Below, one piece after another: positions 49,901 to 61,900 of a stretch of DNA of 64,000 nucleotides. Location of the stretch: assembly GCF_057098645.1 (NCBI RefSeq), contig NZ_JBXSPU010000002.1; one strand, given 5' to 3'. The DNA is from a plasmid. The position numbers are program-made. Position 1 is the first letter of the stretch, and each line of letters begins with the position of its first letter.

Positions 49901-52900
49901 TAGCACGGTATTCCCAGGAAGAGTTAGATTAGCTGTTATTTTATGTGAGTGATTTAAGTAGAGGTCAAAATTCCCAGGGATGTTTCTTCGTTAACTACAA
50001 AATTTCTTTACTTACTTCACTGCAAAATAGACTACATGTTGCTGTTTTCTTCAGACAGCTTCCGGCCTAACGTAACTGAAACGATTATGCTAATATTATT
50101 TTCAACCGTAGTTGCTCATTACCCAGTCAATTCTGCCTAACTTTTCTCTGCATAAGTATGACTAACATGAAATGGCATTTTTTAGGTCAATACTGCATAT
50201 GATATAAACACATTAAACCGTTTTCTTGCCAAATAATATATCCTCAGTTTTTTTAATTTATCGAAAATTCCCGATTCGAAAATCAATCGAATGCGGCGCT
50301 CATCTAGAAATTTTTAAAAGTATCGTCTGGAATTGAATTCAGATTCAATTAACTATGCTGATAACTATTTTCCCACCTTTTTAGCTCCCATACCTTCCCT
50401 GCACACAGAAGTTCAACAGCCCTTTCAGGGTCTTTCTAGTAGTCACATTTATGACTTTTTAACGTTTGAAATCTACCCCGTTACCGAGCTCATGAAGTTT
50501 TTTTCTATGCCATCATACCTCTATTCCATGAGGAGATCGGTAAATGACTCGATTAACGTTAATACCTTCAAAGATGTTAGTGCTGCTGTCTTTGTTTATT
50601 ACTGGGGTCCATGCAAATGAAGAGCAGGCCCTTATCAAAGACACTCCCTTTGTATCAGGACAGGCCTTCAAGAAAGGCTTTTTCTGGTATGACGACCCGA
50701 CAAGGAAAACTGAGGAAGAAATTACAGAGACCAAGCCTCCTGTTGCATCTTCGACCCAGCCAGAACAAGAAGAAAAGATTGAGCTTAATTCAAAGTGGCT
50801 AAAGGACAATATGCCTCAGCTTTTGACTAAGGCTATGGATAATCCGACCCCTGAAAATTTATCGAGATTTTATACAGCACAACGTTTAATGCTGGATATC
50901 GGTACGCGGTTTTCGGATAAATCGAAAGATTATTTCCTTAAAAATCCAATGATGTCTGAAAAACGCAGGCAACCGGTTGAAAAGGTAGCGCTCGATGCAC
51001 ATCGTACGGTGGTCGAGAAAAATCAGCAGTCGGTTATGAAAGATATTTTCACTAAATCCGGGCTGTTTTTCTTTTTCCAGAGTACTTGTCAGTTCTGCCA
51101 CGAAGAAAGTCAAATACTCCAGTTTATGGAGAATTACTATTCTGTCGACATTCTTCCTGTCAGCATGGACGGCAGACCACTACAGAATGGGTTGTTCCAG
51201 GATTTCTCTGTACCTAATGCGCAGATTATTGATCAATTTAAAATCCGTGAAGTTCCAACTATTTTCCTTGTCTCAAAAGATGGGTCATCAGCGCAACGAA
51301 TAAGCGAAGGCATGATCACTGCTGAGGAGCTCAAGAATACTATTATTCTGGCTGCAAAAGGCATGAAGCTGATTGATGATGCCTCTTTCCAGTCCACTTT
51401 AGATATTAAGCGCCAATATACCATTGGCGAGGATGGCGTAATTACTGTGAATAAATCAGAAATGGACTCTGATCCGTTCTTATTGCAACGAATAATGGAT
51501 AAGAAACTTGAAGGGTACGATATGCCAACGGCGGACCCAGTGAACTATCTGAATGTGGGTGGAAGTTTAGGAGGTGCATATGCGCGCTGATTTCCATGTT
51601 TGTGCAAAAAAGTTACTTTTATCGTTAGCCGTTTGCACGGCGATGATTGCGCCAAATGCCGTTGCCGATAACGCCATGCGTAATATTTTCAATGGCATGA
51701 TGACGACTACGAGCCCAGCTAGTTTTGAAACGGCCACCCGTACCGGAGTGGTTGGCGGCTCATTTTCCTACCGCACGACAAACGTGAATACCAATTTAGT
51801 GTCAATGTCTTTTCCCAAAGCTTCCGTAGGCTGCAACGGAATCGATGTTTTCCTTGGTTCCTTCAGTATGATTAACGGAGATCAGCTGGTTCAGGTTGCT
51901 CGCGGTATTGCACAGGGGGCTGCAATTTATGCATTCAATGTCGCGGTATCGGCAATCTGTGCTGACTGTGCTGCGACTATTAACGATATCCAGAATAAAT
52001 TGCAGGCGCTGAATAAATTTGCCAAAGATTCATGCAACGCTACTTATTCGTTTCTTACTGAAAATGTTGGTCCACCTAGCCAGTTTGCGAATGCTGTCAG
52101 TTCCGGCCCTGCTTCAATGCTTGGCACTCTTAATGGACTGTTGCCTGATTTTGGTTCATCAATGACAAAGTCGCCGGAAACCGTGACTTCCCAGGTAAAA
52201 GCAAAAGACCCTGAAGAGTTTGCTGAAAAATTCAGTGGAAACCTTTTCTATATGTCATTTATGGACATCGATAAAGGGTCAATGAATATCGGTGGCGTGA
52301 CTGAGCTATCTGGCTACAGACTTGCTGAGCAGCTGATGTCGCTTGTCGGTACTGTAATTATCAACTGGGACGCTAAAGGTGAAAAAGCGGGGATGGAAGT
52401 TCGCCCGTCGACGATGACGGTATCGGATTTCATCATGGGCCCACCGGCTGGTGGTTCCATAAAAATGCTCAAATGTTCGCCTGCCCCCGATCCAGCTTCA
52501 GCTAGAAAGTCGCAATGCCTGGTTATGTCTGAAGTGACGGATGGTGGTTTCAAAGGTTTGAAGGATACAATCTCGGACCTCCTTATTCAGGTTCAGACAA
52601 AGGCAATTAGTGATGTCAGGATCTCTGATGATGAATTACGCATTATTTCTTATATTGGCATCCCAACTATTCTTGATTCACTTCAGACGTTTGATGTCCC
52701 TGAAGGCTACGCCTATATCCAGGATATCAGTGCGATAGCGGCCACCAGCCTTGTTATTAACATGCTTCGGCAAGTTGAAGCAAAGATCAGCGCTATGAAT
52801 ATACCCAGCGAATCTCTTTCCGGGCGGCGGCAGGACCTGACTAGGTTATCTGAAAACCTGACCAATCAGGTAAAAGCTGCCTATGAGCTAACCCGTAGCC

Positions 52901-58900: not shown

Positions 58901-61900
58901 TAAGTCGGCGAATGAAAAATACCGTCTGGCAGTGTTTACGGATATTACATGCGGCTTTTGCCAGAAATTGCATCAAGATCTTCAATCCTATCTCGACGCC
59001 GGGATCTCAATCAAATTCCTCGCCTTTCCACGTGCAGGTCTCAACTCCGTTGTCGCGGGGAATATGGCAAAAATATGGTGTGCGGCAAAACCTAATGATG
59101 CACTGGATGCCGCAATGAGCCCGACATCAACCATTCCGGAAGGACGGCCTGACGAGGCCTGCCTCGATACCATCAAATCGCATTTCCAGGTAGCTTCAAC
59201 TATTCCGCTTCAGGGTACGCCAACGATGGTAACGCTGTCGGGGAAACCTCAGCTATTCACCGGTTGGATGAGCCCGGAAAATCTGGTGACCCGCATGGGT
59301 GCCGAACAAAAGTGACTTTCCACGACTGCAAGAGGTGTTTATGAAATCTGCAATACTGACAACGTTAATGCTGGTGGCGGTTGGTTCTCAACCCGTCTTT
59401 GCTGCCAAATGCCAGTTCGGGGCCTGCGACGCCGACACTGTGGCCAGCAGTGAGATTCTGGTATCTGCTGCTCAGACAGATAAAGACGCAGTTTTAAAAA
59501 AACTCAATGATGCGACATCCCGCAGCGACGTGATGTCGAAACGGTTTGAGTCGTATCTGAGCAATGACAGGTTAAAGGTGAACACCGACAGTACCAAGAA
59601 AGGCCCTAGCAATGAAATCGCTAAGCCGAGGGATGAGTTGGCGCCGGTAAGGCAGCTGAAAGCCATTCGCCCCGAGCTGGTACAAACACCCATCTTCCAG
59701 CCCATTGTTGCGTTCTATGAACGTCTGGCCTGAGTGCGTCGCTGGGGGTTAGAAGATGTCGCTTTGGCTCAGCATTGTCACCCGGGCAACGGGATTGCCG
59801 GATAAGCGGTATTTAAATGATCCGGTGATCCTCCGTTATTACCAACAAAAGATCCAAAAGGCTCCTTACGCCCTGGTGGGATGGACTCTCTGTTTCATGG
59901 CAACCATTGGTGTGTCGCTGGGACTGGATCTTTCCAACCAGATGTTACTTCTCGTTCTGCTGATATTGATCTTTCTGATGGTGGTGCTCCAGGGGCGGTA
60001 CCAGTTCATGCATCCGGAAAGATGTATCAATGCCAAATTTTACCAAACGGTGCTGGACGATGCGTCAGTCTCAGATATTCAGAAAGCTCAGTTTGAATAT
60101 CTCTTCGTGACCAAAGTGGATGAGCTGACCATCGGTGATCTGTACCGACTCTATGATTTCAACAGAGGAGGCCGGTAAAGACGTGGCATGCAGGTGAGAA
60201 AAGTTAATTTGTGGTTGGTCGTTACAGTGCCGGTCATCAGTTCCAGGGGACCGAGGCGACGTAGTTTCCGGAGCGCAGCGGGGCATCCAGATTCCCGGTC
60301 AAAGCGTCAATCATTGCGGAATACGCCACGCTGTCCGATGGGATCGGCGCATTGCTCTGCATACTGACTTTAAGCACCTGCTGTGCATTTTTTCCCGCAG
60401 GGTAGACTTCCACATCAAGACGACGCCAGAAATGTCTTTGTGATACCGTCTCTGTTCCTACGATCCCACTGACCGGCTTATAGTCATAGTCCGTCTCAGT
60501 TTGCCCGTGCTTATCTTTTCGCGTTGTTTTCTTCTCGATAACATATCCGGTTATTCCCGTCACCGGTAGTTCACTGTATTGCAGATTCTCCTGGGTCTTG
60601 CTGTAACTGAATCTGAGAATATATTCGGGCTGATGGCTGGAAATATTAAACCCCTTACCCGTTAATCCGCTCGCAAACCGGGCTGCAAACATTCGCGACT
60701 GAATACTGTCATCCGGAGCAACAATTTCAAATTTCTTGCTGCCTACCGGGCGGGGCAGTAAATCGTACGCATCAACGTCATTTCCAAAATGATAACCGCA
60801 TCCACATAAGAACGTTGTGGCTGTTAGTAAGAAAAATTGCCGTAACATTCTAAATCCTCCAAAAAGGGTTCTTTAATGAATAATTCCGATTTACCGTGCC
60901 AGTATAATCGAACGCAGGCTGATAACTAACAAGTTGAAATGCGTAAAGGTGGCTATGATTAAATTAAATTATTTAAAACCCGTGGCGTCTGTTTTAATTT
61001 CTGCGGTGATTGCGACGGCTGGCTCTGTGTATATTACGTCGAAATATCTAAAACCCGATGTACCGGGTAACGACGAAATAGGACGAGTGGCTGCTTCCTA
61101 TCTGGTAAAAAATCCCCAGTATCTTCTCGAAGCAGGTAAGGCGCTAGAAAAAGAAAATACTAACGCTTCCCTTGAGCGGATTATCCCCTACGCACCGGCA
61201 CTCTTCGAGACCAAAGAGACACCCAATATCGGACCTGATAATGCGGCCGTCGCTGTTATTGAGTTTTTCGACTACCAGTGTCATTTCTGTATGCAGGTAG
61301 CGCCGGTTGTTGAATCTGTGTTGAGCCAAAGCACTGATGTAAAGTTCTTCTTTAAAGAATTTCCGATCTTCGCTGGCTCAAAACCCGTTTCCGCAATGGG
61401 GGCGGCGACAGGCCTGCATGTGTATCAGACATTCGGTGCGGAAGCGTATCGTAAGTATCACAACAATCTGATGACCAGTGCGTATGTATTCTTCAACAAC
61501 CAGCGTGCGTTTACACTCAATGATTTAGACATGGTTGTGAACAAATCCGGGTTCAACAGCTCATTCGGCGATCGGGAGAAAAGCCGCTATGAGAACGTTA
61601 TCTCCGGAAACATGCAGCTGGGGGAAGCTCTCGGGATTAACGGTACGCCAGGGTTCATTATTATGAACATGCAAAAACCCGACGCTGCAACGACGTCATT
61701 CATCCCGGGCGCTGTTGACGAGGCCACCCTGAAATACGCAATCCAGAAGGCCCGTGGAGGCTAAAGTTACTTTTCCTTCCGAAACTGGCCATGCCGGGTA
61801 ACACCGGCATGAACGTCAGGCTTTGACGACAAGTAACTCATTCCAGCGAGTGGTATACCGTGGGGACAGCATGGCCTGCTTCCCCCGGAAATCCTGATGA

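What the first reader, a model, noticed from the sequence alone, without database searches (positions are those of the whole stretch)
50544..61764. Three CxxC thiol-disulfide oxidoreductases clustered with the mating-pair formation genes
A TraF/TrbB-like protein with CQFC, a DsbC-like protein with CGFC and a DsbA-like protein with CHFC lie within 11 kb around the TraH/TraG-like genes, together with a lytic transglycosylase. This suggests the plasmid brings its own periplasmic disulfide-folding machinery for pilus or secretion components.
Basis: partly seen in the sequence, partly recalled or inferred. Interest (0 to 1): 0.35.

Follow-up and report, generated by a model that had tools for sequence, protein, structure and literature searches.

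The report
IncHI1 plasmid's known disulfide-folding genes
The three CxxC proteins are real, but they are the already-described TrhF, DsbC and "DsbA" (R0135) genes of the Tra1 transfer region of IncHI1 plasmid R27, so this is a correct rediscovery of a known plasmid-borne disulfide-folding toolkit, not something new.

Summary
Observation confirmed. Window 50544-61764 holds three exported thioredoxin-fold proteins with the stated motifs: CQFC, CGFC and CHFC. They sit with trhH, trhG and a lytic transglycosylase. The stretch is 100% identical to many IncHI1 plasmids, and its proteins carry the same accessions as in R27 (R0126-R0135).

The three are not paralogues. They belong to three separate classes:
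- TrhF is a TraF-like protein (TIGR02740) with a ResA/TlpA-type thioredoxin domain.
- R0131 is a full-length DsbC relative.
- R0135 is not a classical DsbA. Its closest solved relative is the trimeric oxidase/isomerase BcfH, followed by ScsC. Its nearest chromosomal relatives are Legionella "27 kDa outer membrane protein" DsbA-family proteins.

A fourth such protein, HtdT, lies in Tra2, outside the window.

The block is syntenic in IncHI2 and partly in IncHI1B. Published microarrays show it is co-induced with the tra genes. The Mpf proteins are cysteine-rich (TrhN 32, TrhU 16, TrhH 8).

The idea of plasmid-borne disulfide machinery for F-like type IV secretion was published in 2005 (Elton et al.), and later papers build on it. 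Only R0135 is still functionally untested. New here are its class assignment and the finding that 96% of TrhF relatives keep the CxxC.

Verdict: already known, low interest.

The parts
50544..51590 (+). trhF (R27 R0126). TraF-like periplasmic protein: signal peptide, N-terminal helical domain, ResA/TlpA-type thioredoxin domain with CQFC (aa 182-185, DNA 51087-51098) and a V-P loop (aa 237-238), then a C-terminal extension of about 70 aa.
   Evidence: Same protein accession as R27 (WP_000197598.1). CxxC is kept in 132/138 relatives and the proline in 137/138. AF2 model pLDDT 84.5. Best solved folds are ResA/StoA/DsbE.
51574..52995 (+). trhH (R0127). TraH-family Mpf protein with 8 Cys, 6 of them beyond the predicted signal peptide, including CADC at aa 129-132. 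Likely disulfide client.
   Evidence: Pfam TraH 2.7e-59. Cys positions. CADC is conserved in IncHI2.
53004..56993 (+). trhG (R0128). TraG_N-family Mpf/entry-exclusion-type protein with 4 Cys at aa 164-249.
   Evidence: Pfam TraG_N 6.4e-30. Cys positions.
57012..57043 (.). Terminator-like hairpin: 13-bp stem followed by a T run. It lies between the convergent trhG and R0129 genes.
   Evidence: This is a consensus scan only; function is not shown.
57240..57851 (-). R0129. HAD-domain protein (HAD_SAK_2) of unknown role, co-regulated with the block.
   Evidence: Pfam 2.2e-22. Conserved in IncHI2 (64%) and IncHI1B (41%). 19.5-fold up in the htdA mutant.
57903..58418 (-). R0130. Specialised lytic transglycosylase (TrbN/IagB/EtgA-like). 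The ORF could extend to 58547. No evident signal peptide with either start. Two conserved Cys.
   Evidence: 66% identical to the IncHI1B homologue, which has a classical signal peptide.
58566..59315 (+). dsbC of R27 (R0131). Full-length DsbC-type protein: signal peptide, DsbC_N dimerisation domain, thioredoxin domain with CGFC (aa 129-132, DNA 58950-58961), a second Cys pair C172/C199 aligned with the second Cys pair of the solved Yersinia DsbC, and a G-T-P loop.
   Evidence: Same accession as R27 (WP_001044069.1).
59341..59733 (+). R0132. Small secreted protein (signal peptide, CQFGAC pair) with no family match. Possible client or accessory.
   Evidence: 58% identical in IncHI2 and not detected in IncHI1B.
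59756..60178 (+). R0133. Small protein with two predicted membrane helices and no family match.
60237..60848 (-). R0134. Predicted lipoprotein (lipobox L-C-G-C) with no family match.
60955..61764 (+). R0135 ('dsbA' of R27; the mechanical ORF starts at TTG 60934). DsbA-family protein of the BcfH/ScsC class: hydrophobic N-terminus, long N-terminal helices, thioredoxin domain with helical insertion, CHFC (DNA 61279-61290) and an invariant T-P loop.
   Evidence: Same accession as R27 (WP_000593841.1).

Best explanation
The region is the distal part of the Tra1 transfer region of an IncHI1 plasmid (R27 genes R0126-R0135). It encodes three exported thiol-disulfide oxidoreductases of three different structural classes. 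Together with a fourth, HtdT in Tra2, they support oxidative folding of the cysteine-rich mating-pair-formation proteins.

Proposed division of labour (inferred):
- TrhN, TrhU, TrhH and TrhG are exported with reduced cysteines.
- Disulfides are introduced by host DsbA and/or by R0135. R0135 is predicted to oligomerise through its N-terminal helices, like trimeric BcfH and ScsC, and so may both oxidise and isomerise.
- Wrong pairings are corrected by the dimeric DsbC_R27 and by HtdT, which would be kept reduced by host DsbD.
- TrhF docks on TrhH through its N-terminal TraF domain, as F TraF does, and places a ResA-type CQFC thioredoxin domain at the assembling apparatus.
- The neighbouring lytic transglycosylase opens the peptidoglycan for the same apparatus.

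Shown: the identities, folds and motifs; the conservation; the co-regulation (literature); and the dsbC phenotype (literature).

Inferred: the client list, the split between oxidase and isomerase, the redox role of TrhF, and any role of R0135.
For: - Identity to R27: 100% DNA identity to many IncHI1A plasmids; same WP accessions as R27.
- Family and fold assignments.
- The four proteins are not recent paralogues: at most 24% identity, E no better than 3.5e-4.
- Active sites are under selection. In the R0135 family the CxxC and T-P are invariant in 38 sequences down to 27% identity. In the TrhF family the CxxC is kept in 132/138 and the proline in 137/138 representatives from clusters at 50% identity.
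- Conserved synteny: IncHI2 has the whole block. IncHI1B keeps LT-DsbC-x-x-DsbA next to TraH/TraG. Identities there (LT 66%, DsbC 49%, DsbA 42%) are above that of TraG (33%).
- Cysteine-rich clients: TrhN 32, TrhU 16, TrhH 8, TrhG 4 Cys. In F, TraN, TraU and TraH (22, 11 and 6 Cys) are the proposed TrbB clients (PMC11315126).
- Regulation: R0126-R0135 are 6- to 27-fold up in the derepressed htdA mutant at 25 C, while the adjacent mucB/mucA are not. R0129, R0130 and R0135 are more than 3-fold up at 25 versus 37 C (PMC7366339).
- Genetics from the literature: the R27 dsbC deletion phenotype in a dsbC-null host, and Rts1 orf206 (the R0135 homologue) needed for more than 100-fold of transfer (PMC10838148).
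- R0135 homologues occur in 3218 of 72,556 plasmids. One sits directly after traX-finO at the end of an F-type tra operon.
Against: - No experiment on R0135 itself exists. The literature calls its function unknown.
- As I recall Elton et al. 2005 (not held), TrhF_R27 did not complement in DsbC-type assays. F TraF works without a CxxC, so the TrhF motif may be dispensable for transfer.
- The R27 dsbC phenotype appears only without host DsbC, so the system is partly redundant in E. coli.
- Many non-tra R27 genes are also induced in the htdA mutant, so co-induction is not specific proof.
- Oligomeric state and redox partners could not be tested here.
- The transglycosylase lacks an evident signal peptide in IncHI1 and IncHI2, which is unexplained.
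Confidence: 0.8

Rival explanations
1. TrhF is only a structural assembly factor, like F-plasmid TraF. Its CQFC is a relic or a structural disulfide and does no redox catalysis relevant to transfer, so only two of the three proteins are working oxidoreductases.
For: F TraF is essential yet lacks the CxxC (PMC11315126 and PMC7555446). From my recollection of Elton et al. 2005 (not held), TrhF_R27 and its thioredoxin domain did not rescue dsbA/DTT phenotypes, whereas DsbC_R27 and HtdT did. TrhF scores above the cut-off only for the 'TraF-like' model, not for TrbB, the proven isomerase.
Against: The CxxC is retained in 132/138 and the cis-Pro-position proline in 137/138 diverse TraF-like relatives. 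That is hard to explain without selection on the active site. The modelled domain is a canonical ResA/StoA-type thioredoxin fold. The literature notes that a redox-inactive TraF is never found alone in a system. Complementation of dsbA/dsbC phenotypes would miss a narrow-specificity, tethered enzyme.
Confidence: 0.3
2. R0135 is not a transfer protein. It is a cargo envelope-stress or colonisation factor, for example ScsC-like protection against copper or oxidative stress, or BcfH-like folding of other surface structures, that merely sits beside Tra1.
For: Its nearest characterised relatives act in fimbrial (BcfH) and copper-stress (ScsC) contexts. It is its own transcription unit next to mucAB. 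R27 mutagenesis has not tied it to transfer; the literature states 'function of R0135 is unknown'. Homologues also occur on non-mobilisable plasmids (610 of 3218).
Against: It is induced under every condition that promotes R27 conjugation: 25 C and the htdA mutant. Its position relative to LT and DsbC is conserved down to 42% identity in IncHI1B. The Rts1 homologue is required for efficient transfer. In an IncFII/FIB plasmid the homologue is the last gene of the tra operon. No scsA, scsB or scsD genes or fimbrial genes flank it.
Confidence: 0.15
3. The set is host-range or low-temperature insurance, not a requirement. In E. coli and Salmonella the host Dsb system does the work. The plasmid copies matter only in hosts or conditions (under 30 C, reducing environments) where host Dsb capacity is limiting.
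For: Phenotypes of F trbB and R27 dsbC appear only in dsbC-null hosts. The identical block is found in at least ten genera of Enterobacterales. IncHI transfer is thermosensitive, and the genes are induced at 25 C.
Against: The SXT dsbC homologue and Rts1 orf206 are needed even in dsbC-positive E. coli, so related systems are not fully redundant. This is a refinement of the main explanation, not a true alternative.
Confidence: 0.4

Closest known systems
R27 (IncHI1) Tra1 genes trhF, trhH, trhG, R0129, R0130 (bfpH/trbN-like), R0131 (dsbC), R0132-R0134, R0135 (dsbA)
   Same: Identical proteins (same RefSeq WP accessions), order and orientation. The R-number assignment matches the published expression tables.
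   Different: Nothing in this region. The window's plasmid differs elsewhere: it is an IncHI1 backbone fused to a decayed IncFIB F-like segment.
[quoted passage not shown]
   Same: TrhF shares the TraF architecture (Pfam TraF 2.9e-50) and the gene neighbourhood traF-traH-traG. Like TrbB it carries a CxxC.
   Different: F TraF has no CxxC. TrhF falls below the equivalog cut-offs for both TraF (109.6 vs 204.6 bits) and TrbB (56 vs 132 bits), and belongs to the separate 'TraF-like' TIGR02740 family. It also has a C-terminal extension of about 70 aa.
E. coli / Yersinia DsbC (dimeric disulfide isomerase; PDB 1EEJ, 4NPB)
   Same: Full-length alignment covering the dimerisation domain, CG[FY]C, the second Cys pair and the T-P loop, at E 1e-37 to 3e-42.
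   Different: Scores 179.6 bits against an equivalog cut-off of 215, so it is a diverged plasmid paralogue. It is only distantly related to IncA/C DsbP (4e-10).
Salmonella BcfH (PDB 7JVE), a trimeric DsbA-like oxidase/isomerase, together with trimeric ScsC
   Same: R0135 aligns with BcfH over residues 46-275, N-terminal helical region included, at E 1.6e-35. The AF2 model's best structural match is BcfH, then Proteus and Caulobacter ScsC. The CxxC and T-P are invariant across the family, which includes Legionella '27 kDa outer membrane protein' DsbA-family proteins at 31-33% identity.
   Different: About 29% structural-alignment identity. The motif is CHFC versus CSWC in BcfH. The genetic context is a conjugation region, not a fimbrial or copper-resistance operon. 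The oligomeric state, the conformation of the proline loop and the activity are untested.
Rts1 (IncT) orf206 and SXT s054 / IncA/C DsbP (thioredoxin-fold genes of MOBH / MPF_F elements)
   Same: These are plasmid- or ICE-borne CxxC proteins linked to F-like Mpf genes. Rts1 orf206 is reported as the R0135 homologue and is needed for transfer. An SXT s054 deletion abolished transfer.
   Different: Only 23% identity between orf206 and R0135 as reported, and the gene positions differ. The SXT result was not complemented.

Membership tests
TraF-like protein family of F-like T4SS (NCBIfam TIGR02740 / Pfam PF13728) | Full-length match above the curated cut-off | tested here: met
   TIGR02740: 353.8 bits against a cut-off of 232.25. 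PF13728: 171.6 bits against 23.
TraF-like protein family of F-like T4SS (NCBIfam TIGR02740 / Pfam PF13728) | Gene adjacent to traH and traG homologues | tested here: met
   trhF overlaps the start of trhH, and trhG follows. The order is the same in IncHI2.
F-plasmid TraF proper (TIGR02739 equivalog) and TrbB proper (TIGR02738 equivalog) | Score above the equivalog cut-off | tested here: not met
   TraF: 109.6 bits against 204.6. TrbB: 56.2 bits against 132. TrhF works like these proteins but is not an equivalog of either.
Catalytic thioredoxin-fold oxidoreductase (TrhF domain) | Thioredoxin fold with the CxxC at the start of helix 1 and a conserved proline loop | tested here: met
   In the AF2 model, strand 172-178 is followed by the CxxC at 182-185 and helix 183-199; pLDDT exceeds 95 in this region. 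Best folds are ResA/StoA/DsbE. The CxxC is kept in 132/138 relatives and the proline in 137/138.
Catalytic thioredoxin-fold oxidoreductase (TrhF domain) | Demonstrated redox activity | not testable with these tools
   Needs biochemistry or genetics. My recollection is that Elton et al. 2005 found none in complementation assays; the paper is not held.
DsbC-type disulfide isomerase | N-terminal dimerisation domain plus C-terminal thioredoxin domain with CG[YF]C, a second Cys pair and a T-P loop | tested here: met
   PF10411 9.5e-15 and PF13098 3.6e-16. Full-length alignments to 1EEJ and 4NPB, with both Cys pairs and G-T-P aligned in the 4NPB alignment shown. Cys positions.
DsbC-type disulfide isomerase | NCBIfam DsbC equivalog cut-off | tested here: not met
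   179.6 bits against 215. It is a diverged paralogue, not the housekeeping DsbC.
DsbC-type disulfide isomerase | Isomerase function in vivo | not testable with these tools
   Literature only: an R27 dsbC deletion lowers transfer in a dsbC-null host (PMC10838148).
BcfH / ScsC class of oligomeric DsbA-like proteins | DsbA-type thioredoxin domain with helical insertion, CxxC and T-P loop | tested here: met
   PF01323 2e-23 and PF13462 2.9e-13. C109, C112, T231 and P232 are invariant in 38 sequences. Foldseek matches to BcfH and ScsC at E 4e-19 to 1e-12.
BcfH / ScsC class of oligomeric DsbA-like proteins | N-terminal alpha-helical oligomerisation region | tested here: inconclusive
   ScsC_N (PF18312) scores 20.6 bits against a cut-off of 25.8, but it is recorded for most homologues. 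The alignment to BcfH starts at residue 46. The AF2 model has helices 39-52 and 54-84 ahead of the fold. Trimer formation was not modelled.
BcfH / ScsC class of oligomeric DsbA-like proteins | Trimeric state and dual oxidase/isomerase activity | not testable with these tools
   Needs SEC-MALS or AUC and enzyme assays.
Classical monomeric DsbA oxidase (E. coli DsbA type) | Closest relatives are monomeric DsbA proteins; no N-terminal extension | tested here: not met
   Classical DsbA structures appear only at E of about 1e-4 to 1e-3 (e.g. 3HD5, 4K2D), far behind BcfH and ScsC. About 80 residues precede the first strand of the fold.
Specialised lytic transglycosylases of secretion systems (TrbN / IagB / EtgA type) | SLT-type catalytic domain with conserved motifs | tested here: inconclusive
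   PF01464 scores 19.1 bits against 21.3. TrbN and IagB models match at 9e-21 and 1.6e-12 but far below their equivalog cut-offs. The EtgA structure matches at 3.5e-8 with the N-E, G-x-M-Q-I-N and Y-N motifs aligned. No signal peptide is evident.

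The most novel reading that the evidence does not exclude
Two readings remain open.

1. R0135-type (BcfH/ScsC-class) oligomeric oxidoreductases are a dedicated and so far uncharacterised component of conjugation. They occur on about 4% of sequenced plasmids, including at the end of an F-type tra operon. They could make assembly of MPF_F machines partly independent of host DsbA.
2. TrhF is a tethered, client-specific oxidoreductase for TrhH, whose own CADC motif is conserved, and not a general isomerase.

Either reading would add a new functional class to a known theme. Neither would be a new kind of system.
Probability: 0.25. Interest if true: 0.35.

Novelty: already known. 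Interest (0 to 1): 0.1.

Why it matters
IncHI plasmids spread multidrug, tet(X4) and mcr resistance, so their transfer apparatus is a potential target. Plasmid-borne Dsb enzymes could undermine strategies that inhibit host DsbA or DsbB to block conjugation or virulence. The genes themselves and the concept are already in the literature. What this analysis adds is modest:
- a clearer class assignment for the untested R0135;
- its wide distribution on plasmids;
- evidence that the TrhF active site is under selection.

Tried and rejected
**Papers that could not be read (not held).** These were Elton et al. 2005 (DOI and PMC1316991), Hemmis & Schildbach 2013 (PMC3743251), Premkumar et al. 2014 on DsbP (PMC3908391) and Jameson-Lee et al. 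2011 on DsbA2 (PMC3086132). What I say about their content comes from papers that cite them, or from memory and is marked as such.

**Searches that gave nothing useful.**
- A PDB sequence search with TrhF found nothing, so a model plus Foldseek was used instead.
- The promoter scan was uninformative: 13 sites against 18 expected from shuffles. Operon structure is therefore inferred from gene orientation and from published operon names.
- R0132, R0133 and R0134 have no Pfam or NCBIfam family. They are not detectably conserved in IncHI1B, so I do not assign them a role.
- A literature search for experimental work on an IncHI-encoded DsbA found none. The TraN-variant paper does not discuss cysteines.

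**Ideas rejected.**
- The three proteins are recent paralogues: rejected, since identity is at most 24% and E is no better than 3.5e-4.
- R0135 is a classical DsbA: rejected.
- The F-derived part of the window contributes trbB or traF: rejected, because that tra region is truncated within traG by an IS21-family element.

Full report
**What is there.** ORF listing and motif mapping confirm every element of the finding.
- ORF 50544-51590 (+, 348 aa) carries CQFC at aa 182-185 (DNA 51087-51098).
- ORF 58566-59315 (+, 249 aa) carries CGFC at aa 129-132 (DNA 58950-58961).
- ORF 60934-61764 (+, 276 aa; RefSeq start 60955, 269 aa) carries CHFC (DNA 61279-61290).
- Between the first two lie a TraH homologue (51574-52995) and a TraG_N homologue (53004-56993).
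- Further genes are a HAD-domain gene (57240-57851, -), a lytic transglycosylase (57903-58418/58547, -), two small ORFs (59341-59733 and 59756-60178) and a lipoprotein gene (60237-60848, -).

Pfam and NCBIfam give highly significant matches. The first ORF matches TraF at 2.9e-50 and TIGR02740 'TraF-like' at 5.7e-106. The second matches DsbC_N plus Thioredoxin_2 and the NCBIfam DsbC model at 5.6e-53. The third matches DSBA at 2e-23.

**Where it comes from.** The 11.2-kb stretch is 100% identical to many IncHI1A plasmids from Escherichia, Klebsiella, Citrobacter, Enterobacter, Leclercia and Morganella. The proteins carry the same RefSeq accessions as those of the prototype IncHI1 plasmid R27, in the same order. 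With the published R27 numbering, the block is:
- R0126 trhF, R0127 trhH, R0128 trhG
- R0129 (HAD-domain protein)
- R0130 (bfpH/trbN-like transglycosylase)
- R0131 dsbC
- R0132, R0133, R0134
- R0135 'dsbA, outer membrane protein'
- then mucB/mucA.

**Three different classes, not paralogues.** Pairwise BLAST among the three, plus HtdT, gives at most 24% identity with E no better than 3.5e-4.

1. TrhF. An AlphaFold2 model built on 56 homologues has mean pLDDT 84.5. It shows a signal peptide, a helical N-terminal domain and a canonical thioredoxin domain, with the CxxC at the start of the first helix. The best solved matches are the extracytoplasmic reductase-type proteins ResA, StoA and DsbE. 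TrhF passes the cut-off of the 'TraF-like' family but not those of F TraF or TrbB.
2. R0131. It aligns over its full length with E. coli and Yersinia DsbC at 1e-37 to 3e-42. In the Yersinia alignment shown, the second Cys pair and the G-T-P loop are aligned as well. It falls below the DsbC equivalog cut-off (179.6 vs 215 bits).
3. R0135. It is not a classical DsbA. Its best solved relative by sequence is 7JVE at 1.6e-35, covering residues 46-275. 7JVE is Salmonella BcfH, described as a trimeric DsbA-like protein that oligomerises through its N-terminal helix (PMC11653150 and PMC11634996). An AF2 model (pLDDT 87.2) has two long helices ahead of the fold. Its best structural matches are BcfH, then trimeric Proteus and Caulobacter ScsC, then Francisella DsbA1 and Wolbachia alpha-DsbA2. 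The nearest chromosomal relatives are Legionella '27 kDa outer membrane protein' DsbA-family proteins and Coxiella-group proteins. Legionella DsbA2 itself is described as a Com1-like bifunctional dimeric oxidoreductase needed for Dot/Icm T4SS assembly (PMC5403849).

**Are the active sites maintained?**
- In 38 R0135 relatives, down to 27% identity, both cysteines and the T-P of the proline loop are invariant.
- For TrhF I scored the protein against 1.84 billion cluster representatives and aligned the 138 full-length sequences among the best hits. The CxxC is present in 132 (96%) and the loop proline in 137.

This matters because F TraF lacks the motif and because, as I recall, TrhF was inactive in the 2005 complementation assays. 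The conservation argues that the motif is nevertheless used.

**Context and conservation.**
- IncHI2 plasmids keep the whole block. Their motifs are CQFC, CGYC and CIYC, and there is one two-gene insertion.
- The much more distant IncHI1B/FIB Klebsiella plasmids keep TraH-TraG ... LT-DsbC-x-x-DsbA.
- Between IncHI1 and IncHI1B, the transglycosylase (66%), DsbC (49%) and DsbA-like (42%) proteins are better conserved than the Mpf protein TraG (33%).
- R0135 homologues are found by tblastn in 3218 of 72,556 plasmid records, of which 2461 are predicted conjugative.
- In an IncFII/FIB plasmid the homologue directly follows traX-finO at the end of the F-type tra operon. In another it lies within a remnant tra region.

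**Likely clients.** R27 TrhN has 32 cysteines, TrhU 16, TrhH 8 (6 beyond the predicted signal peptide, including a conserved CADC) and TrhG 4. This parallels F, where TraN, TraU and TraH (22, 11 and 6 Cys) are the proposed clients of TrbB. The transglycosylase has two conserved cysteines that align with those of EtgA. R0132 has a CQFGAC pair.

**Published functional evidence.**
- PMC7366339 reports that R0129, R0130 and R0135 are induced more than 3-fold at the transfer-permissive 25 C. The authors suggest that the muramidase and the disulfide protein may promote transfer.
- Their Table S4 shows R0126 to R0135 raised 6- to 27-fold in the derepressed htdA mutant at 25 C, while the adjacent mucB and mucA are unchanged (1.5 and 1.3). 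Many other non-tra genes also rise in that mutant.
- PMC10838148 states three things. Deleting R27 dsbC reduces conjugation about 10,000-fold, but only in dsbC-null hosts. Rts1 orf206 is the homologue of R0135 and is needed for more than 100-fold of transfer even with host DsbC. 'The function of R0135 is unknown'.
- An SXT s054 (dsbC-like) deletion abolished transfer, but it was not complemented.
- The foundational paper (Elton et al. 2005, J Bacteriol 187:8267) analysed trhF, dsbC and htdT of R27. I could not read it. What I attribute to it beyond the citing papers is from memory.
- Hemmis & Schildbach 2013 surveyed thioredoxin-like proteins across plasmids. From memory this included Com1-like ones. 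It was also not held.

**Mechanism proposed.** The plasmid supplies a layered oxidative-folding set for its own F-like type IV secretion apparatus.
- R0135 is an oligomeric oxidase/isomerase.
- DsbC_R27 and HtdT are dimeric isomerases.
- TrhF is a TraH-docked thioredoxin module.
- The specialised transglycosylase works alongside them.

The set is not autonomous. No DsbB-, DsbD-, CcdA- or ScsB-like gene is annotated in the parts of R27 and of the tet(X4) IncHI1 plasmid that I inspected. Recycling must therefore use host DsbB and DsbD. The client list, the direction of electron flow for each enzyme and any role of R0135 are inferences.

**Verdict.**
- the 'DsbA-like' protein is BcfH/ScsC-class;
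- TrhF's catalytic role is unproven;
- the set depends on host partners and is partly redundant with them;
- a fourth member lies outside the window.

Novelty: already known. Interest is low.

Noticed in passing
window 1-24023: The window is a hybrid. Bases 1 to about 21386 match IncFIB F-like plasmids at 99.7% (RepFIB, integrase, finO, hydrolase, traX, traI, traD, traT). The IncHI1 backbone starts at about 24023. No PLSDB record covers 80% or more of window 18001-43000 in one piece, so this junction is not represented there.
   Followed up: partly
window 8604-21146: The F-type transfer genes look decayed. traI is split into two overlapping ORFs (8604-12104 and 12101-13873). Their combined span is 5270 nt against 5271 nt for an intact traI, so a 1-nt frameshift or a sequencing error is likely. 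traD is shortened (13873-15717, 614 aa) next to an IS3-family transposase (15760-16650). traG lacks its first ~185 profile positions (18987-21146).
   Followed up: partly
window 21483-23901: An IS21-family element sits exactly at the F/IncHI1 junction: istB-like at 21483-22481 and a Mu-transposase/rve-like istA at 22255-23901. It is a plausible agent of the fusion.
   Followed up: partly
window 57903-58547 (-): The lytic transglycosylase R0130 has no recognisable signal peptide with either possible start, in both IncHI1 and IncHI2. The 66%-identical IncHI1B homologue has a classical one (MTRLFFGAVLFATLTVNANA). How the IncHI1 enzyme reaches the periplasm is unexplained.
   Followed up: partly
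L006 (NZ_KC887916.1) 8896-9687; L005 (NZ_AP024282.1) 8893-9678: R0135-type DsbA-family genes also sit at the very end of F-type tra operons (after traX-finO) in IncFII/FIB plasmids. Homologues occur in 3218 of 72,556 PLSDB plasmids. This suggests a broad, little-studied link between this enzyme class and conjugation.
   Followed up: partly
window 51958-51969 (TrhH aa 129-132): TrhH itself carries a CxxC (CADC), which is conserved in IncHI2 TrhH. It could be a structural disulfide or a partner site for TrhF.
   Followed up: no
L008 (R27) 10873-11385 versus window 50544-51590: There is a naming trap. RefSeq labels the S26-peptidase gene in Tra2 (TrhP in the literature) as 'trhF', while the true TraF-like trhF in Tra1 is annotated only as 'thioredoxin family protein'.
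   Followed up: no
window 61816-63556 (-): Immediately after R0135 lie umuC/umuD-type (mucB/mucA) error-prone polymerase genes. In the published arrays they are not co-induced with the tra block, so they mark the end of the co-regulated region.
   Followed up: partly
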